A DNA stretch of 58,806 nucleotides, counting the filler, from Gonapodya sp. JEL0774 (Eukaryota): NCBI GenBank assembly GCA_027604505.1. It is 8 parts of 8 records of this genome, joined end to end, with 100 filler letters (N's around TTAATTAATTAA, not from the genome) between each part and the next. Parts side by side here need not be neighbours in the genome. Positions count along the whole stretch, not along the records: positions 14,774 to 22,046 come from JADIIX010000515.1; 7 more parts are not named here. One strand, written 5' to 3'. Position numbers and translations under genes: made by a program. Shown one piece after another: positions 14,674 to 40,783 of the stretch (the stretch's first letter is position 1; each line of letters begins with the position of its first letter). Below the pieces are notes generated by a model. That model did not search any database. It saw only the letters and a list, made by a program, of their open reading frames with translations, and was not told where the DNA came from.

Positions 14674-14774
14674 NNNNNNNNNNNNNNNNNNNNNNNNNNN
14701 NNNNNNNNNNNNNNNNNTTAATTAATTAANNNNNNNNNNNNNNNNNNNNNNNNNNNNNNNNNNNNNNNNNNNNT

Positions 14775-14939
14775 TTGGGTGATTGCGTTGGCCTCATATT
14801 ATAGTATAACATAGTCTATTAGTCTTAGTCTTGTTTCTACTACCTGGCCAGCTCGGCCTTTGGAATACACGGGGGGCGGAAATGCCCCTCTTACGAGCCT
14901 AATCTGAGCGAGTGCAGTGTGTGCGACAGTAAACATAGT
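14775..14939 (+). repeat. Left arm of ~165-bp inverted repeat bracketing the kinase-LRR gene
   Basis: Reverse complement of 21884-22045, including a long near-exact stretch ggcggaaatgcccctcttacgagcctaatctgagcgagtgcagtgtgtgcgac. Confidence 0.93.
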
Positions 14940-15396: not shown

Positions 15397-18300
15397 TCAT
15401 ACGTCAATTGTTCGTTGAGCATTGGCAAGTGCCTTGATTGCGCTTCTCCGAGCGTAGCTGATTTTGTTGTCTGGAGGATGGAGAGAGGGGAGAGAGGAGA
15501 CGGTGTGTGAGTGACTCAGCGACTCTGAGCGAGAGCAAGCGGGAAGTCAAACTCTGATACTCACAATAAAGGTAAAGCGACGTCAAGGTGGAATTGGTCT
15601 TGAGGGCCTGAGCAAGCGCGGTGGCGCCAGTCTCACCGATCGAGTTGTCTGGAGTCGAGAGAGAGGAGAGAGGAGACGGTGGTGTGTGTGTGTGTGTGTG
15701 TGGGACTCGGCAGTCTGAGCAAGACTGCAAGAGCGAGAGGTCACACTCTGATACTCACCGTAAAGGTTGAGCGACGTCAAGGTGGAGTGGGTCTTGAGGG
15801 CCTCAGCAAGCGCGGTGGCGCCAGTGTCACCGATCGAGTTGCCTGGAGTCGAAGTAGAGACAAGAGAGGGGAGCAATGAGACGACGAGTGTGTATGTGTG
15901 TTTGTGTGGGACTCTACGACTCTGAGCGAGAGCGAACTGGAGGTCACACTCTGATACTCACCACTAACATTGAGCCACGTCAACGTGGAGTTCGTCTTGA
16001 GGGCCTCAGCAAGCGCGGTGGCACCAGTGTCACCGATCAAGTTGTCTGGAGTCGAAGTAGAGACAAGAGAGAGGAAAGAGGAGACCGTGTGTGTGTGTGA
16101 GAGTTCATATGTATGTGACTTAGCGACTCTTGAGCGAGAGCGAGAGATCACACTCTGATACTCACAACTGACATCGACTGACGTCACAGTGGAGTTGGTC
16201 TCGAGTGCCCCAGCAAGCGCTGTGGCACCAGCCTCACCAATCAAGTTGTCTGGAAGAGAGTAAAGACGAGAGAGAGGAGAGAGGAGACGGTTTGTGTGAG
16301 GTGTGTGAGACTCAGCGACTCTGAGCCAGAGCAAGCAGGAGGTCAAACTCTGATACTCACTCCTGAGATCGAGCGAATTCAAGGTTGAGTTGGTCTTGAG
16401 GGCCTCAGCAAGCGCTCTGGCGCCAGCCTCACCAATTGAGTTGTCTGGAGTCGAAGTAGAGACGCGAGAGAGGAGAGAGGAGACCGTGTGTGTGTGCGTG
16501 AGTGAGTTCATGTGTATGTGACTCAGTGACTCTTGAGCGAGAGCGAGAGGTCATACTCTGATATTCACTGTAAAGGTTAAGAGACGTCAAGGTGGAGTTT
16601 GTCTTGAGGGCCTCAGCAAGCGCTCTGGCGCCAGCGTCACCGATCGAGTTCCCTGCAGTCGAAGTAGAGGAGACAGGAGAGAGGAGACGGTGTGTGTGAG
16701 AGATAGTGTGACAGACTCTGCGACTCTGGAGTGTGAGCAAGATGTCACACTCTGATACTCACAATAAAAGTTAAGCGATGTCAAGGTGGAGTTGGTCTTG
16801 AGGGCTTTAGCAAGCGCGGTGGCGCCAGCCTCACCGATCAAGTTCCCTGCAGTCAAAGTAGAGGAGAAAGGAGACGGTGTGTGTATATGTCAGTGTGACA
16901 GCCTCTGCATCTCTTGAGCAAGAGCGAGCAGGAAACCAAACTCCGATACTCACCAGTGACATCAAGCGACGTCAAGGTGGAGTTGATCTTGAGGGCCTCA
17001 GCAAGCGCTCTGCCGCCAGCGTCACCAATCGAGTTGTCTGGAGTCAAAATAGAGGAGAGAGGAGACGGGGTGTGAGTGACTCAGCGACTCTGAGCGAGAG
17101 CAAGCGGGAGGTCAAACTCTGATACTCACTAGTGACATCAAGCGACGTCAAGGTGGAGTTGGTCTTCAGGGCCTCAGCAAGCACACTGCCGCCAGCCTCA
17201 CCGATCGAGTTGTCTGGAGTCGAAGTAGAGGAGAGAGGAGACGGTGTGTCTGTGTGTCAGTGTGACAGACTCTGCAACTCTGAGCGAGAGCGAGCAGGAA
17301 ATCAAGCTCTGATACTCGCTCGTGAGATCAAGCGATGTCAAGGTGGAGTTGGTCTTGAGGGCCTGAGCAAGCGCGGTGGCGCCAGTCTCACCAATCGAGT
17401 TGTCTGAAGGCGAGAGAGAGGAGAGAGGAGACGGTGGCGTGTGTGTGTGTGTGTGTGGGACTCTGCAGTCAGAGAGAGAGCGGGAGGTGACACTCTGATA
17501 CTCACCGTAAAGGTTGAGCGACGTCAAGATGGAGTTAGTCATGAGGGCCCCAGCAAGCGCGGTGGCGCCAGCGTCATCGATCGAGTTGCCTGGAGTCAAG
17601 AGTGTGGAGAGTGGAGCGAGGAGACAGATGAGACGACGAGCGTATATGTGTGTTTGCGTGAGACTCTGACTCTGAGCGAGAGCGAGGGGGAGGTCACATT
17701 CTGATCCTCACCACTGACATCGAGCGACGTCAAGGTCGAGTTGGTCTTGAGGGCCTCACCAACCGCGTTGCCGCCAGCGTCACCGATTGAGTTCCCTGAA
17801 GAAGTGAAGGAGAAAGGAGCAGAGAGAGAGGTGAGAGAAGACGGTGTGCCTGACTTTGCGAGTCTGAGCGAGAGCGAGCAGGAGGTCACACTCTGATACT
17901 CACCATAAAGGTTAAGCAACGTCAAGGTGGAGTTGGTCTTGAGGGCCTCAGCAAGTGCTCTGGCGCCAGCGTCACCGATTGAGTTCCCTGCAGTCGAAGT
18001 AGAGGAGAGAGGAGAAGGTGTGTGTTTGTGACCATGGGACAGCTCTGTGACTCTGAAGTGAGAGCAAGAGGTCATACTTTGATACTCACAATAAAGGTTG
18101 AGCGACATCAAGGTGGAGTTGGTCTTGAGGGCCTCAGCAAGCGCGGTGGCGCCAGCCTCACCGATCGAGTTCCCTGCAGTCAAAGTAGAGGCGAGAGGAG
18201 AGAGGAGAGAGGAGACGGTGTGTGTGTGTGTGTCAGTGTGACAGACTCTGCGACTCTGAGCGAGAGCGAGCAGGAAATCAAATCCTGATAGTCACTTGTG

Positions 18301-21300
18301 ACATCAAGCGCCGTCAAGGTGGAGTTGGTCTTGAGGGCCTCAGCAAGCGCACTGCCGCCAGCGTCACCAATCGAGTTGTCTGGAGTCAAAATAGAGGGGA
18401 GAGGAGAAAGGAGAGAGGAGACGGTGTGTGAGTGACTCAGCGACTTTCAGCGAGAGCAAGCGGGAGGTCAATCTCCGATACTCACTAGTGACATCAAGCG
18501 ACTTCAAGGTGGAGTTGGTCTTCAGGGCCTCAGCAAGCGCACTGCCGCCGGCCTCACCAACGAATTGTCTGGAGTCGAAGTAGAGGAGAATGGAGATGGT
18601 GTGTGTGTGTCAGTGTGACAGACTCTAAAACTCTGGAGTGAGAGCAAGTGGTCACACTCTGATACTCACAATAAAGGTTCAGCGACGTCAAGGTGGAGTT
18701 GGTCTTGAGCGCCTCAGCAAGCGCACTGCCGCCAGCGTCACCGATCGAATTGTCTGAAGTCGAAGTAGAGGAGACGGTGTGTGTGTGAGACAGTGTGACA
18801 GACTCTGGGACTCTGGAGGGAGAGCAAGAGGTCACACTCTGATACTCACAATAAATGGTAAGCGACGTCAAGGTGGAGTTGGCCTTGAGGGCCTCAGCAA
18901 GCACTCTGGCGCCAGCCTCACCGATGGAGCTGCCTGTATGTATGTATGTATGTGTAAGTAAGTGGAGCGTGGGTGGGGTGAGTGAGTGGGTGTGAAAAAA
19001 AGCTGGAAGTGGTAAAGGCCCCTTCCCCCTCCACCTACTCCCCACTTAGAGTAACCAATCTTCTTAACGTCATCGAGACTATCGTACGGTTGTATTGAAG
19101 CGCCAGGACCAAAGCTTGAACTAATAGCACTTCATGGGTAATGCAATTCAGAAGTTAGTATCGTTTTTGAGGCCCTCTACTGCCAGTGATTCGAAACTGT
19201 CCGAGACTCACCATTTCCTCCTGTCAAGGTGACCTCTGAGTCACCGTTTAAAACGTCTTTCAAAATCCTATCTCTTTGCCATTGATTTAAATTTTCCAGT
19301 AACCTTCTGAGCCTCCGGGGGATATCTGAATAAGTATAGCAGTGACTTAAGAGTACAAGGGGCCGGATAATGGACATAATCCAACCTTCCACGCCAATGG
19401 TCCGAACAGCATTTCGCACCTCCTGTGCCTTCTCAATGTTTTGTTCAATCCCATGACCACGTCGATAGCACATAACCAGATTCAATTGCGCTATTTTGTG
19501 CCCTTCAAGAGCTGCTCTTTGATACCACCGAAATGCCTCCGTGTAGTCCTGTGGTACGGCAAACCCAAAGTAGCGTATGTCGCCCACTGCGTTCATTGCT
19601 TCTGCTGACCCCTGGTTGGCATATTCGATGCAATATGGTACCACGGATTTGAAGTCTTCAGAGGAAAGTCGTCCCTCCTTAAAATACATCACCAATGATT
19701 CAAATGATCTGGTTACCCCGTCCTTCAAAGATTTCAAGAAGTTTTCCATGGTCGGGTTCCGTACAATATTTTCTTCCTGCTCATTGTCAATTTGTTTCTT
19801 CAGGGGGTTCTTTGTCTCAATATCAAATATGGGCTGCAAAGCTTCCACTTCGACTGATTCTATGATCTTCTCGAGAGCTCTAACAATGTTCTCGAAACTC
19901 GGGCGTCTTCCAGGATTAGCATCCCAACATTGTGTAATCAAGACTTTAAGCTCAACAGGAATGTTCCAAAAGTGGTCAAGATTGGGTCTAGCACCACTTT
20001 TCACTTTCTCTGGTACATCGTCTTCGTCCATGTCGGCGAGTGGGATATCTCCAAAACTCCAGATTTCGTAACAGGTGACTGCGAATGCAAAGACATCTGC
20101 TTCCTTGCTCCCAATCCCATTGCTAAATAGCTCTGGCGCCATCCACCTGAGTGTTCCTACTCCTCTGTGAGAAGCTGAAGGTTCTCGGCTGGTGTTTTCC
20201 ACTTTTTGAGACAGCCCAAAGTCCATCAGTACTGCTCTCCCATTTTCGTCCACCAACACATTGTTCCCTTTTAGGTCACGATGAATGTAGCCAAGTGCGT
20301 GCAGCCATTTCATCCCATCAGCAACATCAGATATCTAGCAGTCAGAGGCAACGTCAAGTTCAAGTAGGGTAGGAGGGTTCACTATACCCTCACAAGTTGA
20401 AGCAGATCCCTCATAGGAATTGCTCGCTTCTTCTGAAGATAGTCAACAACGGTTCCATGTCTTAATAGTGGTGATATCACAAACGGCCAGGGTTGTAAAG
20501 CTGCTCCATAAACGGGGAGAATTCGCGGATGTGTGGATACAACTGTCCACAAGTCAACCTCTTCTATGAAGGACTGCCGGAAACACATAGTTACGTAATA
20601 ACATACCGCAAAACTCCTTCAAACTGACTTACTTACAGTGATACCCTGCTCCGACAATGGGCATTTCACTGCAACCTTTTGGCCTTGCCATGTGGCTTCA
20701 AATACTTCACCGAAACGACCCGTTGCGAAAGGCACTCTATTCGTATTCAACTCAGAGTAGGGAATACTGCGAACAGAATTCTTCCACGGACTGTCATGGA
20801 GAACTTCAGAATCAATGTCGGATTCTTGAGGTTTGACGCCAATGGATGTCCTCTTCCTATCACGTTGGTGTTGGCTCCCATTTGATATGCTCCTGGTTTG
20901 ACGCCTATTACCAGAGAGACTTCTTGTTCGGTGGCTACCTACCGATGAACACCTGCTCAACCGCTTCATGCTTTCGCTTATTCTCCTCACATCTTTGCGG
21001 GCTCTTTTAACTTCTTCCCATGCACCTGCGGCTTCGCTTTGTGCCTTTTTCACTTCGCTCTCTGCTTTTTGTAACGCTTCTTGGGTTTTGGAGTGTCCAG
21101 CTGCATTGAGAATTTCCGCTCTGTTATTCTGGACAATATGGTCTAGGTGGAGAACCAGCTGCAGGAAAGGTTCTCAAGAACAATTTCTTTGAACTGCAAC
21201 ACGTAAGGTCACTCACAGAAAAGTCTGCTAGTAAACCTCCAAGGGTCCTCTCATGAGTAGCTATGCTTTCAGACATCTTTTGGGGCTCCAAAAGCGAATT

Positions 21301-21807
21301 TGAAAGTCGTTTGAAGATGTTAGAGTTCTTTTTCTTTGTGCATGCCTCCAGAATCGCCTCCAGCAAGCTGAAATATAAAATATTCAAGGAAAAAGTGCGT
21401 GTTTTGCACGGGTGGTACTCTCACCGTGACAATCGTTCCTTGTATCCATGAAAATATTCCTTCAAAACCACCTCTTCTATTTCCTTTAGTGATAGAATCG
21501 CTTTCAACAGCAGAGCGGTTCGTGATGCCAAGAGAACCAAGCGTTCTCTATTCTGTAGTGAAGTCTTCAAAGTGTCGTGAATCTTCCGGAGAATTGCGAC
21601 AACGGACTCCAAAAAAGGAACCATGTCCGCCTTCGCGACAGCTTCTATAATGGAAAGGAAGAAGTCCACCGAATTCGAGGTCGCGATGCGTCTCCATTGG
21701 GGGAGCTCCTCGGCCAGACCAAGCTCCACGGCAGTTCCATTGAACAATTCCTCGGCAGAGAGCGCTTCAAAACGTTCTCGCTCCTCGCTCCTCTGGAGTG
21801 TCAGCAT
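15397..21807 (-). CDS. MLKL-like N-terminal domain - coiled coil - TKL kinase - SEL1 repeats - 18 single-exon RI/NLRC3-type LRRs plus cap exon
   Basis: VPFLESVVAILRKIHDTLKTSLQNRERLVLLASR (MLKL-NTD-like); GRFGEVF, VAVK, HRDLKGNN, DFG, GTLRWMAPE, DVFAF; SEL1 QDYTEAFRWYQRAA; LRR exons NSIGxAGAxALAEALKTNSTLTxLxL; terminal exon 15470-15397 NKISYARRSAIKALANAQRTIDV*. Confidence 0.88.
15565..18933 (-). repeat. Tandem array of 18 exon+intron units (84-nt LRR exon + ~90-125-nt homologous intron)
   Basis: Exons at 18850-18933, 18670-18753, 18486-18568 (83 nt), 18296-18379, 18090-18173, 17904-17987, 17712-17795, 17506-17589, 17320-17403, 17130-17213, 16954-17037, 16763-16846, 16569-16652, 16361-16444, 16166-16249, 15962-16045, 15759-15842, 15565-15648; each bounded by CAG and a GTGAGT-like donor. 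Confidence 0.93.
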
Positions 21808-21883: not shown

Positions 21884-22045
21884 ACTATGTTTACCGTCGC
21901 ACACACTGCACTCGCTCAGATTAGGCTCGTAAGAGGGGCATTTCCGCCCCCCATGTATTCCAAAGGCCGAGCTGGCCAGAGGACAGAAATAAGGCTAGGA
22001 CTAATAGACTATGTTGTACTATACGAGGCCAACGAAATCACCCAA
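21884..22045 (-). repeat. Right arm of ~165-bp inverted repeat
   Basis: Inverted copy of 14775-14939; the ORF track shows the same peptide MFTVAHTALAQIRLVRGAFPPP on opposite strands at the two sites. Confidence 0.93.
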
Positions 22046-22146
22046 CNNNNNNNNNNNNNNNNNNNNNNNNNNNNNNNNNNNNNNNNNNNNTTAATTAATT
22101 AANNNNNNNNNNNNNNNNNNNNNNNNNNNNNNNNNNNNNNNNNNNN

Positions 22147-26600: not shown

Positions 26601-27016
26601 AGACGTGGAGTAGGAGGAGCTCTTTGTTCGTGTTGAAGCCCAGATAAAGAACAGGACGCGGCCACGTATACACCAGCAAAAGGGCCAGAGGGACGGAATC
26701 AGCCTTTCCACTCCCGCTGGGCTAAACCATATACCCGCCTGCCAGACAGAGAAAATAACATGTAAATTCCCCAATTTATTCGCGGTGGGTGTCTCTGCTG
26801 CTTGTGTGCCCAGGTACTGTAAGTTGGTAACTGAACCTACTTGATGGCTTCCGCCATAAACTACCAACATACTTCGCTCGTAATACATTCTATTACTGTT
26901 CTGTTACTCTGCATTCTATTGTCACAAAATGGGAATACATGTTTCTACTTTGGCCCCGTCGTTGCGCCCGGTGTGTGCCCTTAGTCACATAGCATCACTC
27001 CCCCGAACAAATCCCC

Positions 27017-28640
27017 ATGGCCACTTTCAAAGATCGCGCTCTCATAGACGCCGTCGAAAACTCCGACCTTGATGGCGTGACCAAGGCTCTCAGGGACGGC
27101 GCGGACCCCAACGCGAGAAAGAGGGTGACACTTACTTGCGACATACAAGCTGGGCGATTCACGGACACGATCTCGGCGGAGTCGGCGATCGTCCGCGCGG
27201 TGGTCACCGGAAGGGCCGATGTTGTGGAGGCGTTGCTTGTCGCTGGAGCGGTCGTGAACGGAGCTGCGCTCGAGTGGGTGCTGCCGAATCACGCGGCGAA
27301 CTCAGCTTGGCCCGGTCAGAAAAAGGACTACTGGGACAGTTCTCGATGGAGATGGAAGATTACTTTTCCGTCCGTGTTGAGCTTTGCACTGGGTCGAGGA
27401 GGGAAGTCCACTAATAACCAGTCCCCGACTGATGATTCAGGTTGGAACCAGTCCGACACCGACAAGGGTATCATTCGTCTCAACAAACGCGGTAGTGATG
27501 TCATCCTCCAAAACCCAAAGGACGAGAATCAAGCTTTCGAAAAGATCACCCTTGAACCCCGTCTGGAAATCATCGCCGTCCTTCTGAAACACGGTGCAGC
27601 CATCACCAACGAGGTGCGGGCATTCATTCGTGGGTACCATGATCGGCAGATCAAGGATCTCGTCGAAGCCAAGGCCCAAAATGAGCTGGAAGTCGTTCTT
27701 GCGTCGATGGTTCCGAATGCGATGTCCAATGTGGAGTTGGCCAAGTTGGTCGCCGAGCAAGGCAAACACATGGCTGCCCTCAGTTCGCAGCTCGCAGAAC
27801 AGGGCAAGCAAATCACAGCACTCGCCAAGCAGCTCACCTCTCTTGAAGTGGAGAACGCTGCTCTGAAAGTTGACAACGCCGCCCTCAAAGTTGACAACTC
27901 CGCTCTCAAAGGGGCGAGTCTTTCTCTCAAAAACGATCTGTCCACGACAGAAAGGAGGACTCTCGACCTCGAACGCCGTTGTGCAACTCTGGAAACTTCT
28001 CCGCCCGCGCGCACCCTCCAGGCAGATTCAAGCTTTTCTCCGCAACTTCATACCTCGTACCATCCTGGCACTTCTCGACTTGCTGACATCGATCGCCGTG
28101 TTCTTCTCGTCGAACGCGAACTCGCAACTCTCCGCGGTAACCCCCTTCCATCCGCACCACCTCCGCCTATTGACGTGAAACGTCTCCTCTGGGCCGTTGC
28201 AAGATTTGACCCGAGTGGCCCGGACGAGATCCATGTTGCGGTGGGACATCAAGTGTTTGTGAATCTTCAGTACCCGGATGGGTGGGGTACCGTGAGTGTT
28301 TGAACAGCGAGCTACCAAGGGACGCGAGTTTTCATCACGTTTGATGAATATACCTGCCTCCGTTGATCACAAGGGTCTCAACACCACCACAAACCAGCAG
28401 GGCTTCTTCCCCATGGGCTGTCTCTCCGACGATCCCTCCGCTCTCAACCTCAACCCTGGCTCGGGCTCCAACACTGCCTCTTTTGCCCGCCGTGTCGCTT
28501 CAGTCGATCGGGTCGGTACTCCAGTGGCTGGTCAGCAGGGTGTCGGTGGCGGCGCGGGAGGGTACCAGAACCAGGCTTACGCTCCGCTGACGACGCAGTT
28601 GCGGGGGACGTGGGATGGGAGGGTGGGCGGTGGCTGGTGA
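27017..28640 (+). CDS. Ankyrin-repeat - coiled-coil - SH3 protein (2 exons)
   Basis: ALRDGADPNAR, DVVEALLVAGA; heptad repeats ENAALKVDNAALKVDN; SH3 AVARFDPSGPDEI...YPDGWGT / GLNTTTNQQGFFPMGC. Confidence 0.82.
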
Positions 28641-29510: not shown

Positions 29511-30218
29511 GTCTTGAGTGCGTTGGCCACCGCCCTGGCGCCGGCCTCGCCGATCTCGTTCCCTAGCAGAAGAGAGACGGAGTGGGTGCGTGACCAAATC
29601 CAAACATGCACCCGGGGCTAAAACTCAAAAATCAAAACTCACTACCGAGGTCAAGCGATGTCAAAGTCGAGTTGGTCTTGAGTGCGTCGGCCACCGCCCT
29701 GGCGCCGGCATCGCCAATCCCGTTATCTAGCAGAAGAGAGACGGAGTGGGTGCGTGACCAAATTCAAACATGCACCCGGCGCTAAAACTCAAAACTCAAA
29801 ACTCACCATGCAGGTCAAGCGATGTCAACGTCGTGTTGGTCTTGAGTGCGTCGGCCACCGCCCTGGCGCCGGCCTCGCCGATCTCGTTATCTAGCAGAAG
29901 AGAGACGGAGTGGGTGCGTGACCAAATTCAAACAAACACCCCGCGCTGAAACTCAAAACTCAAAACTCACGCCTGAGGTCAAGCGATGTCAACGTCGTGT
30001 TGGTCTTGAGTGCGTTGGCCACCGCCCTGGCGCCGGCCTCGCCGATCTCGTTCCCTAGCAGAAGAGAGACGGAGTGGGTACGTGACCAAATTCAAACATG
30101 CACCCGCGGCTAAAACTCAAAAATCAAAACTCACAATCGAGGTTAAGCAATGTCAACGTCGAGTTGGTCTTGAGTGCGTCGGCCACCGCCCTGGCGCCGG
30201 CCTCGCCGATACTGTTAG
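29511..30218 (-). repeat. 164-bp tandem units = 84-nt LRR exon + 80-nt near-identical intron (4 complete + 1 partial)
   Basis: Exons 30135-30218, 29971-30054, 29807-29890, 29643-29726, partial 29511-29562; intron gtgagttttga...ctctcttctgctag. Confidence 0.93.
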
Positions 30219-32596
30219 CTAGAAGACGTGCGCAGAGTGTGAAGTGAAGAGAGATGGACAATCCGAGAGTTCAAACAACAGTATGAGTATTGCATTTTGG
30301 AGGTGACGTGGGTCAATGGACAAGTTCTGAGATCAGCCGCAGCACCACGAAGGTGTTATGAAACAACTCACATCGCAAATCTAATTCTGTAGGATTTCCG
30401 TTGTAAAGTTGGAGAAGTGCATCTTGTACCTTCTTCCCAAGTTTCTTTTCGTCAGCGGTTAACTGCCTGGGGGTTCTCACAACACGAGCATTCTGTTTGG
30501 GTCCTGGAATCTGTCTTTTCTGCTCTGCTTCTTGGGCTTTGAGTAATCGACTCTCTTCATCGACCTTGAGACGCCTTGTTTCTTCCGCCTGCTTCTCGAG
30601 GACTGCCAGTCGCTCCCGCAATTCCGACTGTTCTGCTTCGAACTGCGCGCGAAGTCTTGCTTCGGTAGCCTTCTCAATGATTGCATGCTCTGCCTCAGCA
30701 AACATTGTGCGTTCTGTAGACGGTTTGGCCGATGGAGTTCTTGACGGAGATAATGCATACTGCGACTGAGATGGAGAGAGTGTGACTCCAGAGTCATGAC
30801 TACGTCCTTGTATCGACAAAAGGCGACTTGGTGGGGAGGGATTGTTCAAGTCGGGATATGCTCTCTTGAGTTCCGAAATTAAGGTAGCAAAAGTGGGTCG
30901 CTTGCCAAGCTGTGGGTCCCAGCAACGTCGAACAAGATCCTGTATTGGTTTGGGCATAGGAACAGTGGCGGCTAACTCGGCGTCATCGATTTCCTCGACG
31001 TCTCTGAGGTCCTCATAGGTTTCAATGTCTGGTCGCTCGCCCGACTTCATCACAGTTACGACAGCGTCATCGGCTACACCGGCGAACGGCATTTGAAGTG
31101 TGTACATCTCATACACAGTCATGGCAAATGCATACACGTCCAGTTTCTCAGTCAATGTAGGCTTTGTGGCAAAAAGCTCAGGGGCCATCCATCGTTTGGT
31201 ACCAACTCGGGCCAGCCCAGTGAGATTAGACACCTGTTTTGTGACAGCTGCGAAACCGAAATCGGTGACCAGAGCGTTCCCGAGATTGTCCACCAGCACA
31301 TTGGCGGCCTTAAGATCGCGGTGGAGGATACCTTTTCCATGGAGGTACTGCATTGCGGATGCAACGTCAAAGACGAGATGAACACGATTGATGTGCGGAT
31401 ATTTTTGGAGATACGAGAGGAGGTGACCATGCTGCATGTATGGTGACACCATGAACGGCTGGGTAGCAATGAGATTAGCTCCAAAGAGTTGCAGAATGTT
31501 TGGATGGCGCAGTTGTGACCAACGCTTGACTTCGTTGTAGAGAAGCTATGTACACATAATCCATGACCTGCTGTGTAACATCATATGCAATATGAATGAT
31601 CACTCACGTCCGTCAGCTTTTGGCTTGGGTTTCTCACAAGCAAACGCTTGAGAGCCACAGTACGGGTTCCACTCCACGTGGCCTTGAAGACTTCGCCAAA
31701 ACCACCAGAAGCAAATGAGTCTCCCTCGAGAACAATGTCGGATTCCGGGATATGCCAATCCTCCTCTGTAAGATCTTCTCCGGACAATCTAGAAAGGCTT
31801 GCACGGGTTTTTCTGAGAAGAATTTGTTCTCGTGGAGTAGCATCCCCTGTGGTGATAGCCGCTTGAATGGTTCGCAACACCTCCATTATTTGAGCGTTCC
31901 CAAGCTCCAGAGTCGCGAGTAATGTTGCGTCGTTTTTCTGCAGCTGTTCGAGCATATCTTGTGCTGCATTCTCTGCAATGTTTCGATCCGCGTTGTTTTC
32001 GGCGGCCCACCTATCAAGGTTCAACACCGCGGCAAGCTTAAGGGAGTCCGAAGCCATGTGACCAGGGATATTGAGAAAACACAACATACGAGTACCTACT
32101 TGAAAGTCCTTGACCATGGTTTGAAGTCTGAGATCAAACTCTTCGATTTCCTTCCGCGTCACACTGCTGTTCAGAATGCGGTACCATTTGGGTTTGCTTT
32201 TGACAGTCTCCAGAAAGTGAGCAACCTCTACCAGAAACCTTTGAACAAAGCCAGTAAGACACAAGAGTGCAGAGCCCTCCAGGAAGTTACCCACTTGGTA
32301 AAATCGACGGCATGTTTGCGGAGAGGTTCCCGCAAATCGGTGCTTCCGGGATCCATCCGGTGAGCGATAGCCTCCACGAGCAAGGCACATCGACTGGCAA
32401 GGCGCACTACGAGCTCTTTATTCTCTCGGAAGTCTTTTGCGACGGTGTAGACTGCGCGAAGACCTTGAGCGCAGGCTCCAAACACGGGGACATTGGTGAT
32501 AGTTCCGACGGCGCCCAGGACGGCAGCGACGCCATCAAGCAAGTTGCCGGCAAGGTGTGGATCAACTCCCTTGAAAGCACCTCCGTGCGCCTGCAT
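29511..32596 (-). CDS. Second MLKL-like NTD - TKL kinase - coiled coil - single-exon LRR array gene (3' end runs off contig)
   Basis: VPVFGACAQGLRAVYTVAKDFRENKELVVRLASRC (MLKL-NTD-like); GGFGEVF, VALK, HPNIL, HRDLKAAN, DFG, GTKRWMAPE, DVYAF; then LRR exons N(S/E/G)IG(E/D)AGARAVA(D/N)ALKTN(S/T)TLTxLxL. Confidence 0.88.
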
Positions 32597-33354: not shown

Positions 33355-33568
33355 GTTACACTCACCCATCAGTCATCGTTTTCATCCATCTGATTCACAA
33401 AGAATCTTTGAAGAGTTTCGTCCATCTGCACTCCAAAACATGGGATGGGGATGGGATGAGGATGAGGATGGGATGGGGATCGGTTGGACCTTCTGAAACT
33501 GTTGCAAAATGGGATGGAGGTTCTGAAACTTTCTTTCTATAAAAGTAGTCTATTTGATTGATTCGGTA

Positions 33569-36500
33569 ATGGCAGCCAAACATCATCTCACTCAATACTG
33601 GCAATTGGGATGGATAGCTTTCCCAATTTCGATTGCATGGAACTCAAATCGCCAGAAAAAGGAGTTGCAGGCTCCAAAGGGATGGCAGAATCTTGATGTC
33701 GAGGCAGCCAAGGCTCTGCCAACGAGAAATGCCATGGCCATCCAAACAGGCTCAGCTTCGGGCATTATCGTGCTCGACATTGATGACGTTGATGGTTGGC
33801 GACAATTTCTCCACGAAAACGACCAAGTCGAACCACATACAGTAACAGCACGTTCTCAAAGCGGCGGCATTCACTATTACTTCGAATGGAGCGAATCGGT
33901 CAACGACCTGAAATCCACATCTGCTCTTCTGGGTGGATGCGCAGATATCCGCAACAAGGGCGGCATGATTATCGCTCCACCGACATCGTTCGCCGTTCCG
34001 GGCGAAACCGAAGCACGGACTTACGCGTGGCTCGAGGGGAAATCACCATGGGATTGTGAGCTTGCTCAAATGCCAGACTGGCTCGCATTGGCTCTTCGTG
34101 AAAGAGGTGGCGGTAATTTGGGTGCTTCGAAGCGAGAGGCACGCATACAATCCACTGGCCCCGACTCCGTACCCACACCCTCCGTGGTAAAAGAATACAT
34201 TGCAGAATTCTACGCAATAATGCCAGACAACGTTGGCGATACCAAGTGGCTTGGCGATGGAGGAGGGTTTGCTGTGAGCACAAAAGTATATGATTGTTGC
34301 TTTAAAAAAGCGCCTCACAAAGGAAACAAGCAGTATCTTTTTGTGAGCGCGAATGGAGACATGTCACGTCGTTGTCACGACGGGGATTGTGTCGATAAAA
34401 AGTGGGGGAGTCGGAGAGTGCCTACAGACATAGTGAACGCTATCACGGCTCTTTTTGTCAGGATACCTGACGTCTCTCCTGAAATTGTACAAGGAGCTTG
34501 TCAGGAAGCTGTAACTCTTGTCAATGATGTGCATCCAGGCAATGCGAACGTTGCAATGGTTTATCGCCCAGACGCACACTCATTTCAAGGTGCTCTGGAC
34601 ACGTATTTTGGCCGGAAAGTGTGTCCATTTTGCGAACAGGGAAAATTAGTTGCTATTACAAGCAGGGAGGGTCTCGCGATTCGTTGCGATTCTGCTGTTT
34701 GTGGATACAGGTCACCAGCAAATGGAGCCATGCCCGTCGGCATGGATAAGTACAGCAGATTGGGAAACTTTTTCATGGTGGTCAACGTCAACGTCACAAA
34801 CAACAACGCAATAACTACCATCAACAATTTTGGCTCAGACGCTGACATACCGAGTTTGTTTCTCGGGGATGACGTCATGGTACGTCCTGAACCTGAACTA
34901 AATCGTCTCATACTTCACGCTCTTGGCGGCAGCGATAGTACGATGGCAAGACTCTTTGCTCGTCTTTATTCTGGGCGCGTGGCGTTTGCAGGTGGGAGGT
35001 GGTTCACCTTCTCCCACAATCGATGGAGAGAGGGTGACGAAAGTCAGGTGATGGCGATTATGGATGATCCAAATAATTCCGAGTTTGTTCGTGCTTTGTA
35101 TGACGCGCGCGCCGCATACACAAACGCAACGATGGACAAAGATGTCAAGGAGCAGAAACTGAAGCGCATCGCAGCAACGATAGTAAGCTCAGAGAGTCGC
35201 CATAAGCAAAGTGATATTGCCGCCATGTGCAAGAAGCCCACCCTTCTGGGTATCGCAGACGAGCTCTTTCTGGACAAACTAGACACAAATCACAAATTAC
35301 TCGGCTTTGACAACGGCGTTTACGATTTGAGCAGCCGTGTATTCCGCCCGGGCGAACCAGGAGACTACGTCTCGCTGAGCGTCGGTTACGATTTTGTACC
35401 GAACAAAATGTCAGATCCAGTTACAAGAGAAGAGGTCATGAGGTTTTTGGAAACTGTCTTCCCAGATGCAGGCGTAAGAAAATACACGCTTCTCTTTCTT
35501 GCATCGGCTCTCGAGGGCTACAACAAAGATCATAGATTTCATTTTGCATATGGCAAAAGTGGGCGTAACGGGAAAGGTATCTTGATGAAAATCATGGAGA
35601 TGGTCCTCGGAGGTTACATGACGATGGTCAACTCGACACTGATTTGCGGAAAATCCGCAGATGCAAATGCTGCCACACCACAACTCACCAAAATGGTCTG
35701 CAAGCGCTTCGTCTATATGTCCGAGGTGGAAGCCGGTGCAAGAATCAATGAAGAAGTATTCCAAAGACTTTGCGGTGGCGACAAACTTGTGATTCGGCCA
35801 TTGTTCAAAGAATCTCGTGAAGTTGACAACATGGCGAAAATCCTGATGTTGTGCAACGACATGCCTAAAATTGACGGAAGCAAGGATTCCAACAAACCCC
35901 GAATTGCCATCATTCCATTTGTTAGTAGATTTATTGACGGCCCGTGCGATCCTACAAAGCACGAATATCCCATTGACACTGAGCTCCATATGAAAGCGAG
36001 TCAATGGAAGCACGCAATGATGGGCATACTACTCGATTACCACAAAATCTACATTCGAGATGGTCTCAAAGATATACCTGAAGCCATGAAGCGCGCAAAA
36101 ACCCAATATCTCGGAGTAAACGATCAATCTCGTCTAGTAGACGAGTTCGTTCAGGAAAGCCTTGTCAAAGGTGGCCAAGGCATTGTCACGGAGGAATTGA
36201 TTTCTAGGTATCGATCGTGGGAAAAGGAAAACGGAGTAAAGCACCCCGACAGCGATAAAGAGAGAATCATGATGACGCATTTTGAATCAGGCTCAACTTA
36301 CAGACATTGAAAATGGCGCCAAGCGTGCCAATGTTCGCCGCTTCTACGATGCCGAGAAGAAGCGAAAGCATGGGTACGGAGGATGGAATTTTGTGACACA
36401 AGTACCGCGAGAGAAGGGGCTGAGCGAATGCGCACGCTCTGTGACATCTCTCATTGAGGAGAACATTGCACAGGCTGAGTGGATGGTAGACACACGGACG

Positions 36501-36770: not shown

Positions 36771-36870
36771 NNNNNNNNNNNNNNNNNNNNNNNNNNNNNN
36801 NNNNNNNNNNNNNNTTAATTAATTAANNNNNNNNNNNNNNNNNNNNNNNNNNNNNNNNNNNNNNNNNNNN

Positions 36871-39397
36871 CCTTAAGTCAACGTCTGCTCTCCTTGGTGG
36901 TTGTGCAGACATCCGTAGCACTGGCGGCATGATCATTGCGCCACCGACTTCGTTCACCGTTCCGTGCGAAGCTGAACCACGTGTGTATACGTGGCTGGAG
37001 GGTAAGTCGCCATGGGATCATGAGCTTGCTGAAATGCCCGACTGGCTCTTACAGGCTCTTCGCGAGAGTGGAAGTGGCTCTGCTATCACTGTCAAACTAG
37101 GTCGTCCTGAGACGCACGTGCAACTCGACGGCCCTGACATTGCCACGACACCAGATTTGGTGAAAGATTACATCATGGAGAGTTTTGGGATTGTGCCAAC
37201 GTGTGTTGGTGGCACGAAATGGCTTGGTGACGGATTGGGCTATGCTGTGTCAACAAACGTTTTTGACTGCTGCTTCAAAAAAGCCCCACATAAAGGAAAC
37301 AAACAGTACATTTTTGTGAGCGCAGGTGGTGACATGACACGCCGCTGTCACGACGGAGATTGTCGGGAGAAGAAGTGGGGTCAACGCAAGGTCCCGCCGG
37401 AAATAGCTCAAGCTCTGCGGGAGTTGTTTCCATCGAAGCCAATAGTCGATCCGGAACTTATCGAATTGGCACGAAAAGAGGCGGCTGACCACGTAAACGA
37501 TACAGTCCCCGGAAATGACGCGATGGTCATGGCACTCAAAGCGGATTCGTCTGGATTTGAGGGATCCCTCAAAACCTTCTATAATCGGGATCTCTGTTTC
37601 ATGTGTGAGAAAGGGGTGTTGATGGCCACCACGAATAGTACCGGACTGGCTATAACATGTGATAATGCCTCATGTTCGTTCAAGATACCGGCAACAAGTG
37701 GCATTCCTGTCCCCGCAGACAAATATGCCAACTTGGGGAAGTTCTTCGTCATCATTCAGGAGCTGAATGTCACAAATATCACCATCAACAATAACATCAG
37801 TAACACAGATATTGGTCCGAACGAGTTTGTCAAGGACAATGTTCAATTTTTCGAGAGTGAAACATTGAACAGTACCTTCCTTCGCTCTCTAACGGGCGAC
37901 GGAGTGCTGATCGCAGATTTTATACAAGAGTATTACGCCGATGCAGATGTTGTCCACATAGACGACGCCGAGAGAAATAAAGCGTGGATGATTTTTACAG
38001 AGGGCAAGTGGAGAGCGATGAGTCTCACCAACATTGCAAGACGCTTACTGAGTACCAGTGATTTTCGTGGTCATTATAACCGTGCGTGGACTCACTACGC
38101 TGATCTCAATGAACCACGTAAGGCGAAGAGGATCAGCGACACGCTGACCGCTATTGGTGAGCCACATAAGCTCAAAGGCTATATGGGACTCACGGAGAGT
38201 TTTTTTGGTACGAAAGGTACTGAATTTCAGAGACTGAGAGATACAAAGCGCAATCTTTTGGGTTTTGAGAATGGTGTGCTTGATCTAGATGCATTTGTGG
38301 CGGGAAAAAACCCGTACTTCCGAGAGGCTGAGCCAGCCGACTACATTACCATGAGCACTGGCTACGCTTTTAGCTCCACAGAGGCACAGGACAAAGTGGT
38401 GAAAGGGCGCATTATGGAAGTACTCGCTCAGATTCAACCAGAAGCCGAGAACCGTGACTACCTTCTGAAGTTCCTCGCTTCAATGCTCTCTGGGGAGATC
38501 AAAGACGCCAAACTTATGTTCTTCGAAGGGAGCGGCGCCAACGGAAAGAGCATGCTCACAAAGGCCGTGGTGGCAGTTCTAGGGGACTACGGAGGAATGG
38601 CGAAAACGGAAATATTTACCCAGAAGGCAGGTGCTGACGCCCGAGCACCCAACTCTGCGATTGCCAAAATCGCAAGGGCGCGTGGAGTATTCTGTGAGGA
38701 AATTGAAGTTGGTGCGAAAATCAACACCAAGGTCATGAAGGAACTCACAGGAGCCAATAAAATCTCGAACCGCGCTGTGTATGCTCGTGAAGAGATGACA
38801 ATCGAACCGCAGTGGCATTTTGCAATCTGTGTCAACCACGCCCCGAGCTTTGCAGATGACAAATCCGATGGTGCTACACGCCGCATCGACATCCTTCCCT
38901 TCACTTCTTCATTTGTGATCAGTGGAGACATTGACCACGCAAATCACGTGTACAGAGCAGATCCTGACATGGCCGAAAAACTGGGAGGGGAATGGCGCAA
39001 TGCGTTTCTCGGAGTTCTGATGGACTACTGCAAGAGATTCCGGACAGAAGGTCTGGAAAGACCAATTGAAGTACTGGAAAGGCGCGAGGACTACATTGCA
39101 AGCAACAACCCCCTGTGGGACTTCCTGCAGGAGTCTCTTGTGAATAAACCTGACAGTGCAGTATCTCTGGATGAGATTCTCATACATTTTCGTCGGTGGT
39201 TTGTCACAAAGTACAGTGAAGCATCACTTCAGGCACAGTACCCAGAGTATGTTGAAGCTAAAACCCAGAGAAGAGGAGGTAAGCTCAAAGTGATTCGGGA
39301 GATCGGTGGCAAACTTCGACAGATGGGAAGAACAGTCAGTTTCGTCCGCGATAAGAACACATGTGTCATTGGGTACATGTGGAAAACGGACAACTAG
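36871..39397 (+). CDS. Second intronless Prim-Pol - D5-like primase-helicase (5' truncated by contig edge)
   Basis: DIRSTGGMIIAPP; LLGFENGVLDL; GSGANGKS; FCEE; KELTG; ICVNHAP; RRIDILPFTSSF; N-terminal half closely parallels the 33569 protein. Confidence 0.9.
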
Positions 39398-39620
39398 AAA
39401 TACAGCATCAGTATATAAACTACAATCAACTGCGTAGATTTCGCTACACTTTGCAGCCAGAATTATTCACACCACATTACATGCCCTATCGTCATATCAC
39501 TCTTCCCATCAAAAATGTGCCCACATACTGCGGGCCATGTAACATTCACTGGGTCAGCTTGGCCAAGCTGAAAATAAACAACATGTAAAAAACCCTGAAG
39601 AGATGTAGTGATGTAGATAT

Positions 39621-40213
39621 GTAGAGATGTAAAATGAAAAGTAAGAATGAAGGACGTAGCAAATATATGATTCAAAGCATGAAGTTCAAAAGACCTGCAT
39701 TCGGCTTTTCAAAGACAAAAAGACAATCTCACATTTTAAAATTATCATGTTTATCTTTCATCAATACATCTCAACAATCAGCACTCACACATAGAAAACA
39801 CTTGTAGAGACGTAGAGATGTAAAATGGAAAGTAAGAATGAAGGACGTAGCACAATATATGCTTCAAGCATGAAGTTCAAAAGACCTGCATTCGGCTATT
39901 CAAAAGACAACAGACAATCTCACATTTTAAAATTATCATGTTTATCTTTCATCAATACATCTCAACAATCAGCACGCACACATGGAAAACACTTGTAGAG
40001 ATGTAGAGATGTAGATATGTAGAGATGTAAAATGGAAAGTAAGAATGAAGGACGTAGCACAATATATGCTTCGAGCATGTTGTTCAAAAAGACCTGCATT
40101 CGGCTTTTCAAAGACAACAGACTATCTCACATTTCAAATTACCATGTTTGTCTTTCATCAATACATCTCAACAATCACCACTCACACAGGAAACACTTGT
40201 AGAGATGTAGAGA
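39621..40213 (+). repeat. Three tandem ~190-207-bp AT-rich repeats
   Basis: Units start ~39621, 39812, 40019 (gtagagatgtaaaatg(a/g)aaagtaagaatgaaggacgtagc...gacctgcattcggc...tcatcaatacatctcaacaatca). Confidence 0.9.
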
Positions 40214-40515
40214 TACAGAGGTGGAGAGTTTGGTGTTCGATCAGCAAGGGCTGCTGAAGGAGAGAGCACCCTGTTTGCACAGGAAAGATAGGAGTTATCG
40301 TGACTCGCAACAATGGGAAGAGTAGGACGTAGCTGTGATTATACAGTGTAAGGGCACCAGAGCGATGATTGACGCCACCTCAAATATGGTCTGCAGTTCC
40401 AAAAATATCTCGATATATCTCATGTTGATGTAATGCTTACTTTATAATAAACCAGACACGAGATATGGTGACTGCATGAAGGCAAAAATACAATTGACTC
40501 CGTTATACAGGCTTT

Positions 40516-40783
40516 GCAACCCCGCCTATTGCCTTGTTACAACTCCAATGTTGCTAGTTTCAACTCCGCCTGTTGCCTCTTACAACTCCAGTGTTGCGAA
40601 TTTCAACTCCCCCTATTGCCTTGTTACAACTCCAATGTGCTAAATTTAACTCCGCCTGTTGCCTCTTACAACTCCAGTGTTGCTGATTTCAACTCCGCAT
40701 TGTGCCCTTTACAACTCCAATGTTGCTAAATTTCAACTCCGCCTGTTGCCTCTTACAACTCCAGTGTTGCTAATTTCAACTCC
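40516..40783 (+). repeat. Iteron-like array of ~13 CAACTCC-core units at ~21-23-bp spacing (43/86-bp higher order)
   Basis: ttacaactcca(a/g)tgttgc alternating with tttcaactccgcctgttgcc; inverted GGAGTTG copies follow at ~40822-40927. Confidence 0.85.

What the first reader, a model, noticed from the sequence alone, without database searches (positions are those of the whole stretch)
15397..21807. All-in-one MLKL-like / kinase / SEL1 / LRR receptor with one LRR per exon: candidate diversifying fungal immune system
Seen: one gene joins an N-terminal helical domain, a catalytically intact TKL kinase, SEL1 repeats, and 18 LRRs each on its own symmetric phase-1 exon. There is also a divergent first repeat (~19060-19140, VQALVLALQYNRTIVSMTL) and a cap exon. 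Established: MLKL four-helix/HeLo-like domains execute lytic cell death; described fungal NLR-like receptors use WD40/ANK/TPR rather than LRR sensors; one-repeat-per-exon arrays underlie exon shuffling in brown-algal LRR-ROCO genes. Inference: this is a sensor-kinase-executioner fusion whose ligand-binding surface can be rearranged exon by exon.
Basis: partly seen in the sequence, partly recalled or inferred. Interest (0 to 1): 0.92.

Follow-up and report, generated by a model that had tools for sequence, protein, structure and literature searches.

The report
Fungal MLKL-like kinase with exon-cassette LRRs
This gene of a water-mould-like fungus is predicted to splice a four-helix module related to the cell-death protein MLKL, a protein kinase and 17 leucine-rich repeats, each on its own 84-base exon, into one protein that likely senses foreign molecules and would then trigger defence or cell death, although this particular copy carries signs of damage.

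Summary
The gene is real in outline (minus strand, 21807 to 15397; a database label names Gonapodya sp.). Its parts are an N-terminal helical domain, a TKL kinase with VAVK/HRD/DFG intact, about two SEL1 repeats, and 18 RI-type LRR exons. Corrections: only 17 LRR exons are 84 nt. Exon 3 is 83 nt and truncates the protein unless skipped; exon 9 has a GC donor; the divergent first repeat lacks its expected donor. The N-terminus (residues 63-210) is homologous to Pfam MLKL_N domains of fungal kinases by a profile built here and folds as a four-helix bundle in MLKL register. However, the non-lytic Cbl bundle fits as well, and Pfam itself gives no hit. A second, intact-looking paralog with the same layout lies in this window, with excess variation on its LRR concave face. 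Allomyces has MLKL-like/kinase/LRR and G. prolifera has kinase/SEL1/LRR proteins. No RNA was available, so splicing is predicted only. Exon-per-LRR arrays occur in other eukaryotes, and this scan earlier noted kinase-LRR exon arrays in other fungi. Best reading: an LRR-gated non-self receptor kinase; lysis is unproven (0.4). New variant of a known kind; interest 0.6.

The parts
21425..21807 (-). Exon 1 (aa 1-127): 62-residue helical extension, then the start of the four-helix bundle
21217..21367 (-). Exon 2 (aa 128-178): last helices of the bundle
   Evidence: intron positions shared with paralog
21063..21621 (-). MLKL_N-like four-helix bundle plus start of brace (aa 63-210, spans two introns)
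   Evidence: own HMM 30.5 bits vs best of 500 shuffles 7.1; VIA-align to MLKL Z 8.4, to Cbl Z 9.6
20637..21158 (-). Exon 3 (aa 179-352): coiled-coil brace, low-complexity linker, kinase Gly-loop and VAVK
   Evidence: database model P0001 drops part of it
20394..20573 (-). Exon 4: kinase alphaC to hinge
19212..20334 (-). Exon 5: kinase C-lobe (HRD, DFG, APE), linker, SEL1 repeats, helical LRR N-cap; ends in phase 1 at a GTGAGT donor
19873..20756 (-). TKL-type protein kinase domain, catalytic motifs intact
19399..19605 (-). About two SEL1 repeats
   Evidence: Pfam Sel1 E 8e-13 for the first; helix pattern; alignment to P0046
19046..19120 (-). Divergent first LRR exon; GA at the expected donor after 19061, weak in-frame GTGGGG donor after 19046; can be skipped in frame
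15565..18933 (-). Array of 18 exon+intron units; 17 exons of 84 nt, phase 1-1, each one 28-residue RI-type LRR; introns 92-124 nt and homologous to each other
18486..18568 (-). LRR exon 3, 83 nt (1-nt deletion): frameshifting, must be skipped for a full-length protein
17320..17403 (-). LRR exon 9, followed by a GC donor
15397..15470 (-). Cap exon with stop codon
21884..22046 (.). Right arm of a ~165-nt inverted repeat, 77 nt upstream of the ATG, running off the contig end
   Evidence: 90% identity between arms
14774..14939 (.). Left arm of the same inverted repeat, downstream of the gene, running off the contig end
29511..32596 (-). Paralog (gene B) on another contig: MLKL_N-like domain, kinase, coiled coil, at least 4 complete 84-nt phase-1 LRR exons, cut by the contig end; no SEL1

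Best explanation
The gene is predicted to encode a soluble receptor kinase in which a C-terminal LRR horseshoe likely binds a foreign ligand, would thereby release the kinase, and the activated kinase-brace unit would free the MLKL-like four-helix bundle to oligomerise and kill the cell. Shown in the sequence: the domain order, intact catalytic motifs, symmetric 84-nt LRR exons, and an array built by duplication of exon+intron units. Predicted: splicing into one mRNA with LRR exon 3 skipped, and the four-helix fold. Inferred: ligand sensing, the immune role, autophosphorylation and lysis. Specificity would change by gain, loss, conversion or skipping of whole exon cassettes. Because the codon for the exposed residue before each repeat's Asn is split across the intron, each new exon pairing also writes a new residue on the binding face.
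For: N-terminus 63-210 scores 30.5 bits (E 2e-11, single comparison) against an HMM of 12 MLKL_N-like domains from fungal kinases; best of 500 shuffles 7.1, reversed 2.6, best of 119 LRR decoy proteins 2.5; the paralog scores 65.3. ESM Atlas: score 0.93 to a cluster with PF22215 MLKL_N in 36% of members. AlphaFold model (pLDDT 71, 14 sequences) aligns residues ~63-178 to the N-terminal bundles of human MLKL (Z 8.4, rmsd 3.0, 112 aa), mouse MLKL (8.4), NRG1.1 CC-R (7.9), MLA13 (7.8) and AtMLKL3 (7.8, rmsd 2.5), each from its first residues. 5 of the 26 closest other kinases carry precomputed PF22215; 14 of 26 pass the own HMM, 12 of them being its seeds. LRR framework is under purifying selection (omega 0.37, p 2e-5 against 1) and concave positions evolve faster (0.81, p 0.025 against one ratio). 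In the paralog, 8 of 15 concave-face nucleotides vary against 9 of 80 intron sites (Fisher p 0.0006, four exons). All 136 forward pairs of the 17 intact exons give a stop-free junction codon, with 8 different residues. No segment looks like a transmembrane helix (best 19-residue hydropathy 1.57, within the bundle). Repeats of high internal identity mark fungal immune receptors (PMC4986451, passages).
Against: Pfam gives no MLKL_N hit on this protein. The Cbl four-helix bundle, a non-lytic adaptor (function recalled), fits at Z 9.6, and designed bundles and CAMP factors score higher than MLKL, all below the noise level quoted for helical bundles. A 62-residue extension precedes helix 1; for basidiomycete MLKL-likes with such an extension the function is stated to be open (10.1101/2022.03.16.484565, passages). 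The kinase is intact, unlike MLKL, and in Pm13 the bundle did not kill. Concave-face omega is not above 1 in this gene (p 0.51); the only site picked by M2a is position 10, off the concave face. The recombination signal (p 0.0005-0.016) vanished when thinned to one site per codon (p 0.26-0.79). This copy has three lesions. The G. prolifera kinase-SEL1-LRR model P0046 has no such N-terminal domain.
Confidence: 0.4

Rival explanations
1. It is the same LRR-gated non-self receptor, but it works like wheat Pm13: the four-helix bundle is an autoinhibitory or adaptor module, and the output is phosphorylation by the kinase, not a pore.
For: Intact VAVK/HRD/DFG; 62-residue extension before the bundle; Cbl bundle fits as well as MLKL; Pm13 brace-kinase kills and needs kinase function while MLKL_NTD alone does not (PMC11297308, passages); P0046 has kinase-SEL1-LRR without the bundle.
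Against: The domain is closest in sequence to MLKL_N domains, and the same clan executes death in animals, plants and ascomycetes (PMC12881547, PMC10197012, passages).
Confidence: 0.3
2. This copy is a decaying or truncated member of a fast-turnover family; the functional receptors are its paralogs.
For: Frameshift in LRR exon 3 (stop at aa 883 if included), GA at the expected donor of the divergent repeat, GC donor at exon 9; long kinase branch, 1.33 against a median of 0.67; weaker profile score than the paralog; flanking inverted repeats suggest a mobile or repeat-rich setting.
Against: 786 codons of core are open with canonical introns at positions shared with the paralog; every lesion falls in a symmetric exon that can be skipped in frame; the framework shows purifying selection; a single-base assembly error in a tandem array cannot be excluded.
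Confidence: 0.2
3. It is a non-immune signalling kinase (development, stress, cytoskeleton or flagellum), and the array is a neutral by-product of tandem duplication.
For: RI-type LRR proteins of axonemes are the best PDB sequence matches; the same exon design occurs in unrelated eukaryotes; positive selection on the concave face is not shown for this gene.
Against: Variation is concentrated on the concave face in both paralogs; no close orthologue was found (cluster of 1; N-terminus finds only itself), as expected of fast-turnover recognition genes and not of housekeeping kinases.
Confidence: 0.1

Closest known systems
Fungal MLKL_N (PF22215)/HELL-kinase proteins, e.g. P0123, P0127, P0133, P0131, P0136; noted in PMC12881547 (passage) as HELL domains joined to kinase/pseudokinase domains
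   Same: Four-helix domain, brace and TKL kinase in the same order; kinase falls in the same supported group of 25 of 30 rows (95/95).
   Different: Adds SEL1 repeats and an RI-type LRR array; domain too divergent for a direct Pfam hit; none is functionally tested to my knowledge.
Allomyces javanicus GGF32_003262 (P0134) and Gonapodya prolifera KXS19660.1 (P0046), both uncharacterised
   Same: P0134: MLKL-like domain (25 bits before it was a seed), kinase, C-terminal LRRs. P0046: kinase, SEL1, N-cap, divergent first repeat, RI-type LRRs.
   Different: P0134 has a different repeat unit and no SEL1; P0046 has more SEL1 repeats and no N-terminal bundle in its model; their exon structures could not be read.
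Wheat Pm13 / MLKL-K (PMC11297308, passages)
   Same: MLKL_NTD, brace and a functional kinase in one immune protein.
   Different: No LRR or SEL1 sensor; plant; death depends on brace-kinase, not on the bundle.
Animal MLKL and plant AtMLKL1-3
   Same: Four-helix bundle in the same structural register, then brace and kinase fold.
   Different: They carry pseudokinases and no built-in sensor; here the catalytic motifs are intact and the bundle is preceded by 62 residues.
Brown-algal ROCO and LRR-kinase genes with one LRR per exon (PMC3341825 abstract and section 15; PMC11378527 abstract)
   Same: One repeat per symmetric exon; an inactivated exon left inside the array; variable concave face.
   Different: 84-nt RI-type units instead of 72 nt; no Roc-COR; no inverted intronic exons (22 of 22 matches on the coding strand); no exchange seen between the two paralogs.
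Fungal NLRs with HeLo/HELL effector and high-identity WD/ANK/TPR repeats (PMC4986451, passages)
   Same: All-in-one effector-switch-repeat logic; internally conserved repeats (82% nucleotide identity between exons).
   Different: No NACHT/NB-ARC; a kinase sits in the middle; the repeats are LRRs, which that survey did not find in fungal NLRs.
Soluble kinase-LRR genes of Batrachochytrium dendrobatidis (BDEG00798, BDEG05169; PMC2939053 passages and two rows of Table S8)
   Same: Chytrid tyrosine-kinase-like domain followed by C-terminal LRRs, with an unannotated N-terminal stretch.
   Different: Only listed in 2010; no MLKL-like domain, exon design or function was assigned in what I read; not compared by sequence here.

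Membership tests
Fungal MLKL_N-TKL kinases | N-terminal domain homologous to MLKL_N (PF22215) | tested here: met
   Indirect: own HMMs from PF22215-positive relatives give 18.5 and 30.5 bits over nearly the whole profile (best shuffles 8.3 of 200 and 14.9 of 500 for the first HMM, 7.1 of 500 for the second). Pfam itself gives no hit.
Fungal MLKL_N-TKL kinases | Four-helix-bundle fold specific to the MLKL/HeLo clan | tested here: inconclusive
   Bundle predicted and aligned in register to MLKL, CC-R and AtMLKL3 at Z 7.8-8.4, but Cbl (9.6) and unrelated bundles (up to 11.9) score as high or higher.
Fungal MLKL_N-TKL kinases | TKL kinase behind the bundle, related to the family's kinases | tested here: met
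   Pfam PK_Tyr_Ser-Thr; grouping 95/95, unresolved inside.
MLKL proper (animal/plant) | Pseudokinase domain | tested here: not met
   VAVK, HRD, DFG and APE all present.
MLKL proper (animal/plant) | Bundle permeabilises membranes | not testable with these tools
   Needs expression or liposome assay.
NLR (STAND) receptors | Central NACHT or NB-ARC domain | tested here: not met
   No such family in Pfam scans of exons and of P0001.
Brown-algal ROCO-type exon-shuffling receptors | Roc-COR GTPase | tested here: not met
   Absent.
Brown-algal ROCO-type exon-shuffling receptors | One LRR per symmetric exon | tested here: met
   17 of 18 exons are 84 nt, phase 1-1.
Brown-algal ROCO-type exon-shuffling receptors | Inverted LRR exons inside introns | tested here: not met
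   22 of 22 blastn matches in the window lie on the coding strand.
Brown-algal ROCO-type exon-shuffling receptors | Recombination among units and diversifying selection | tested here: inconclusive
   Mosaic pattern and PHI-like p 0.0005-0.016, lost on thinning; concave omega 0.81 in this gene; excess concave variation in the paralog on four exons.
Brown-algal ROCO-type exon-shuffling receptors | Alternative splicing of LRR exons | not testable with these tools
   No sequencing run was listed.
Pm13-type kinase fusion proteins | MLKL_NTD, brace and catalytically competent kinase in one chain | tested here: met
   Architecture and motifs only; activity untested; no claim of orthology.

The most novel reading that the evidence does not exclude
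Zoosporic fungi have a family of all-in-one necroptosis-like immune receptors in which an LRR array directly gates a kinase and an MLKL-type killer domain, with no NOD domain. Specificity is recombined by whole-exon turnover and skipping, and each new exon junction writes a new residue on the binding face. This would be an LRR-based innate immune system in the kingdom thought to use only WD, ANK and TPR sensors.
Probability: 0.3. Interest if true: 0.85.

Novelty: new variant of a known kind. Interest (0 to 1): 0.6.

Why it matters
Surveys report no LRR sensors among fungal NLR-like receptors (PMC4986451, PMC2939053, PMC9119436; passages), and fungal MLKL-like kinases have no known trigger. A gene that carries its own candidate sensor, an active kinase and an MLKL-like bundle makes two open questions testable in one construct: do fungal MLKL-kinases kill, and do early-diverging fungi use LRRs for non-self recognition? 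The exon-cassette array also offers a small, tractable case of receptor diversification. The combination was not found in ten paper searches of a library that lacks most subscription journals.

Tried and rejected
No whole genome is held, so paralogs could not be counted genome-wide. No RNA or DNA run was listed, so no reads were laid; this is no evidence on expression. Searches with the N-terminus alone returned only the window's own protein (1 of 2749 candidates; 1 hit among 1.84 billion representatives). Pfam gave no MLKL_N or HeLo hit for either paralog's N-terminal exons or P0001. Foldseek against PDB gave no match at E <= 0.001. A profile search of PDB with alignment A1 listed only kinases in its top 60. 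The first gene-B model had wrong splice coordinates and stops and was corrected. A strict LRR-plus-donor pattern found 0 metagenome stretches; a looser one found 2. A second Atlas query on the post-kinase region did not complete. The model of exon 5 is low-confidence after residue ~305 and was not searched by fold. Rejected: the database model P0001 as the true protein, because it drops the kinase Gly-loop/VAVK and a conserved stretch after the bundle, whereas the longer model shares three intron positions with the paralog. Rejected: M2a as proof of positive selection, because it rests on one off-face site with multi-base changes and recombination inflates this test. Gene-B introns do not align to the gene-A array (best E 0.11), so no exchange between these two genes is seen. 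Earlier-finding look-ups by place, by sequence and by Gonapodya words returned nothing. No complex prediction was run.
Full report
Setting. The window is eight small contigs joined by N-linker-N spacers. The gene fills one contig (14774-22046, 7273 nt) on the minus strand. A homologue search with exon 1 returned the window's own database product, P0001, 898 aa, labelled 'hypothetical protein HDU93_007648, partial [Gonapodya sp. JEL0774]'. Gonapodya is a zoosporic fungus (Monoblepharidomycota; recalled). No whole genome and no sequencing run were available, so all splicing below is predicted.

Gene structure. Five core exons (21807-21425, 21367-21217, 21158-20637, 20573-20394, 20334-19212) have GT-AG introns and give an open frame of 786 codons with VAVK, HRD, DFG and APE in place. 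Pfam finds the kinase and one passing Sel1 repeat on exon 5; the helix pattern suggests about two. Exon 5 ends in phase 1 at a GTGAGT donor. Then come a divergent repeat exon, 18 LRR units and a cap exon. Seventeen LRR exons are 84 nt, phase 1-1. Exon 3 is 83 nt and gives a stop at aa 883 if included; no cryptic site within the range tested rescues it. Exon 9 has a GC donor. The divergent exon has GA where its donor should be, and the next in-frame donor inserts five residues against canonical repeats. All three lesions lie in exons that can be skipped in frame; the skip-3 model is 1311 aa and ends at the TGA at 15397. The database model also skips exon 3 and the divergent exon, but it drops the kinase Gly-loop, which I take to be an annotation error.

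Independent support for the fusion. A paralog on another contig of this window (32596 to 29511, cut by the contig end) has a fully open 793-aa model with canonical introns: N-terminal domain, kinase, coiled coil, then 84-nt phase-1 LRR exons. Three of its core introns sit at the same positions and phases as in the gene studied, and its kinase exon is joined to the first LRR exon through a GTGAGT donor. The two proteins are 29% identical over N-terminus and kinase. Among the 119 other proteins listed (best 120 of 618 hits), 4 join a kinase and LRRs; one is G. prolifera P0046, whose last SEL1 repeats, N-cap and divergent first repeat align continuously with this gene (E 2e-25). Allomyces javanicus P0134 has an MLKL-like domain, a kinase and C-terminal LRRs.

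The N-terminal domain. Pfam does not name it, and single-sequence searches find only itself. Three indirect lines point to the MLKL/HeLo clan. First, 5 of the 26 nearest other kinases carry PF22215 MLKL_N (14 of the 26 rescanned). An HMM of those five domains scores residues 63-208 of the spliced model at 18.5 bits, and a 12-domain HMM at 30.5 bits, against best shuffles of 14.9 and 7.1 (500 each), reversed 1.3 and 2.6, and best decoy 1.7 and 2.5 of 119; the paralog scores 39.2 and 65.3. Second, the Atlas places it at 0.93 near a cluster with MLKL_N in 36% of members (a lead only). Third, the AlphaFold model of residues 1-178 (pLDDT 71, bundle 70-86, extension 52-60) aligns from residue ~63 to the first residues of human MLKL (Z 8.4, rmsd 3.0, 112 aligned), mouse MLKL (8.4), NRG1.1 (7.9), MLA13 (7.8) and AtMLKL3 (7.8). 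Against this: these rows rank 17 to 31, below designed bundles and CAMP factors; c-Cbl fits at Z 9.6; Foldseek found nothing significant; and the tool warns that Z under about 13 is common for helical bundles. So homology is well supported by sequence, the fold is consistent, and the fold does not show lysis. A kinase tree of 30 of 32 rows (P0132 and P0135 dropped for short matches) puts both window genes in a 95/95 group of fungal kinases, unresolved inside, with a long branch (1.33) for this gene.

The array. Exons are 82% identical on average and the introns are homologous (mean p-distance 0.24), so the array grew by copying exon+intron units. The paralog has its own near-uniform 80-nt intron (6% divergence) that does not align to this gene's introns, so each array was homogenised separately. 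Similarity does not follow position (r 0.02, p 0.38), and exon distances agree weakly with flanking introns (r 0.15, p 0.09; r 0.08, p 0.22; the intron alignment is poor at the microsatellite 3' ends). A PHI-like test gave p 0.0005-0.016 with all sites but 0.26-0.79 with one site per codon: recombination is suggested, not shown. The framework is under purifying selection (omega 0.37, p 2e-5); four within-exon concave positions have omega 0.81, higher than the rest (p 0.025) but not above 1 (p 0.51). Pairwise pN at position 28 and at the junction codon is 0.62 and 0.65 against an all-site pS of 0.25. In the paralog's four complete exons, 8 of 15 concave nucleotides vary against 9 of 80 intron sites (p 0.0006; sites within a codon are not independent). 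The junction codon is split across the intron: all 136 forward pairs of intact exons are stop-free and give eight residues, mostly Tyr, Asp, Asn, Gly and Trp. No inverted LRR exon was found (22 of 22 matches on the coding strand).

The exon design is not special to fungi. A loose pattern scan of metagenomes found 2 stretches: L001 holds seven 84-nt LRR exons and L002 one, with the same boundary; L002's lie upstream of a Roc-like GTPase (read by eye, motif identity recalled). Brown-algal ROCO and LRR-kinase genes have one LRR per 72-nt exon; shuffling with inverted exons was seen for ROCO but not for the kinase loci (PMC3341825, abstract and section 15; PMC11378527, abstract). One 84-nt LRR per exon in vertebrate NOD/NLRC genes is recalled, not confirmed by my search. 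Earlier notes of this scan describe kinase-LRR genes with one repeat per exon in two other fungal genomes and a moss LRR-MLKL fusion (unchecked here).

Mechanism. I commit to an LRR-gated receptor kinase for non-self. Whether the output is bundle-mediated death (0.4) or kinase signalling with an inhibitory or adaptor bundle (0.3) is open. HeLo/HELL and MLKL bundles kill (PMC12881547, PMC10197012, passages), and HELL-kinase proteins are noted in fungi. But basidiomycete MLKL-likes with an extra N-terminal helix are of open function (10.1101/2022.03.16.484565, passages; its supplements were not read and may list such N-termini), and in Pm13 the brace-kinase, not the bundle, kills (PMC11297308, passages). 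This copy may be decaying (0.2), or the protein may be non-immune (0.1).

Novelty. Fungal NLR surveys found no LRRs (PMC4986451, PMC9119436, passages). Four soluble LRR-kinases of Batrachochytrium were listed in 2010 (PMC2939053, passages and two of four table rows), and MLKL-family homologues with Sel1 repeats were reported in Glomeromycotina (PMC8778642, passages). The joined MLKL-like/active kinase/SEL1/exon-cassette LRR design was not found in ten searches. Every part has a precedent, the combination appears undescribed, and it recurs in at least two paralogs and, in part, in two other zoosporic fungi. Verdict: new variant of a known kind, interest 0.6.

Noticed in passing
window 14774-14939 and 21884-22046: Both ends of the gene's contig carry the same ~165-nt sequence in inverted orientation (90% identical), one arm ending 77 nt upstream of the ATG. 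This may be a gene captured between long terminal inverted repeats (Pack-MULE-like; idea recalled) or two separate repeat insertions; both arms run off the contig, and there is no third copy in the window.
   Followed up: partly
window 29511-32596 (-): Paralog with MLKL_N-like domain, kinase, coiled coil and 84-nt LRR exons; looks intact as far as the contig goes and is the better candidate for experiments.
   Followed up: yes
window 33527-36310 (+) and 36827-39397 (+): Two long intronless ORFs with Prim-Pol, D5_N and DUF5906 domains, a primase-helicase type typical of large DNA viruses and their endogenous copies (recalled); the first lies about 1 kb upstream of the paralog on the same contig.
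   Followed up: no
window 26993-28303 (+): ORF with an ankyrin-like domain, coiled coil and the start of an SH3-like tail; 31% identical (E 6e-28) to the N-terminus of Gonapodya P0124, an ANK-kinase-ANK-SH3 protein whose kinase is among the nearest to this gene's. Suggests module swapping around one kinase clade.
   Followed up: partly
P0002-P0120: Near-identical RI-type repeats occur in many Mortierellaceae proteins, in coral NLRC3-like proteins and in unnamed NACHT/NB-ARC-LRR proteins from metagenomes; at least one Mortierellaceae protein (P0100) carries NACHT plus LRR by precomputed Pfam, which would be an LRR-type NLR in a fungus.
   Followed up: no
L001 1-1585; L002 1-1250: Unidentified eukaryotic contigs with the same 84-nt phase-1 LRR exons; L002 continues into a Roc-like GTPase.
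   Followed up: partly
window 39612-40214 and 40517-40783: Further tandem arrays with periods 191 and 43/87 nt, not examined.
   Followed up: no
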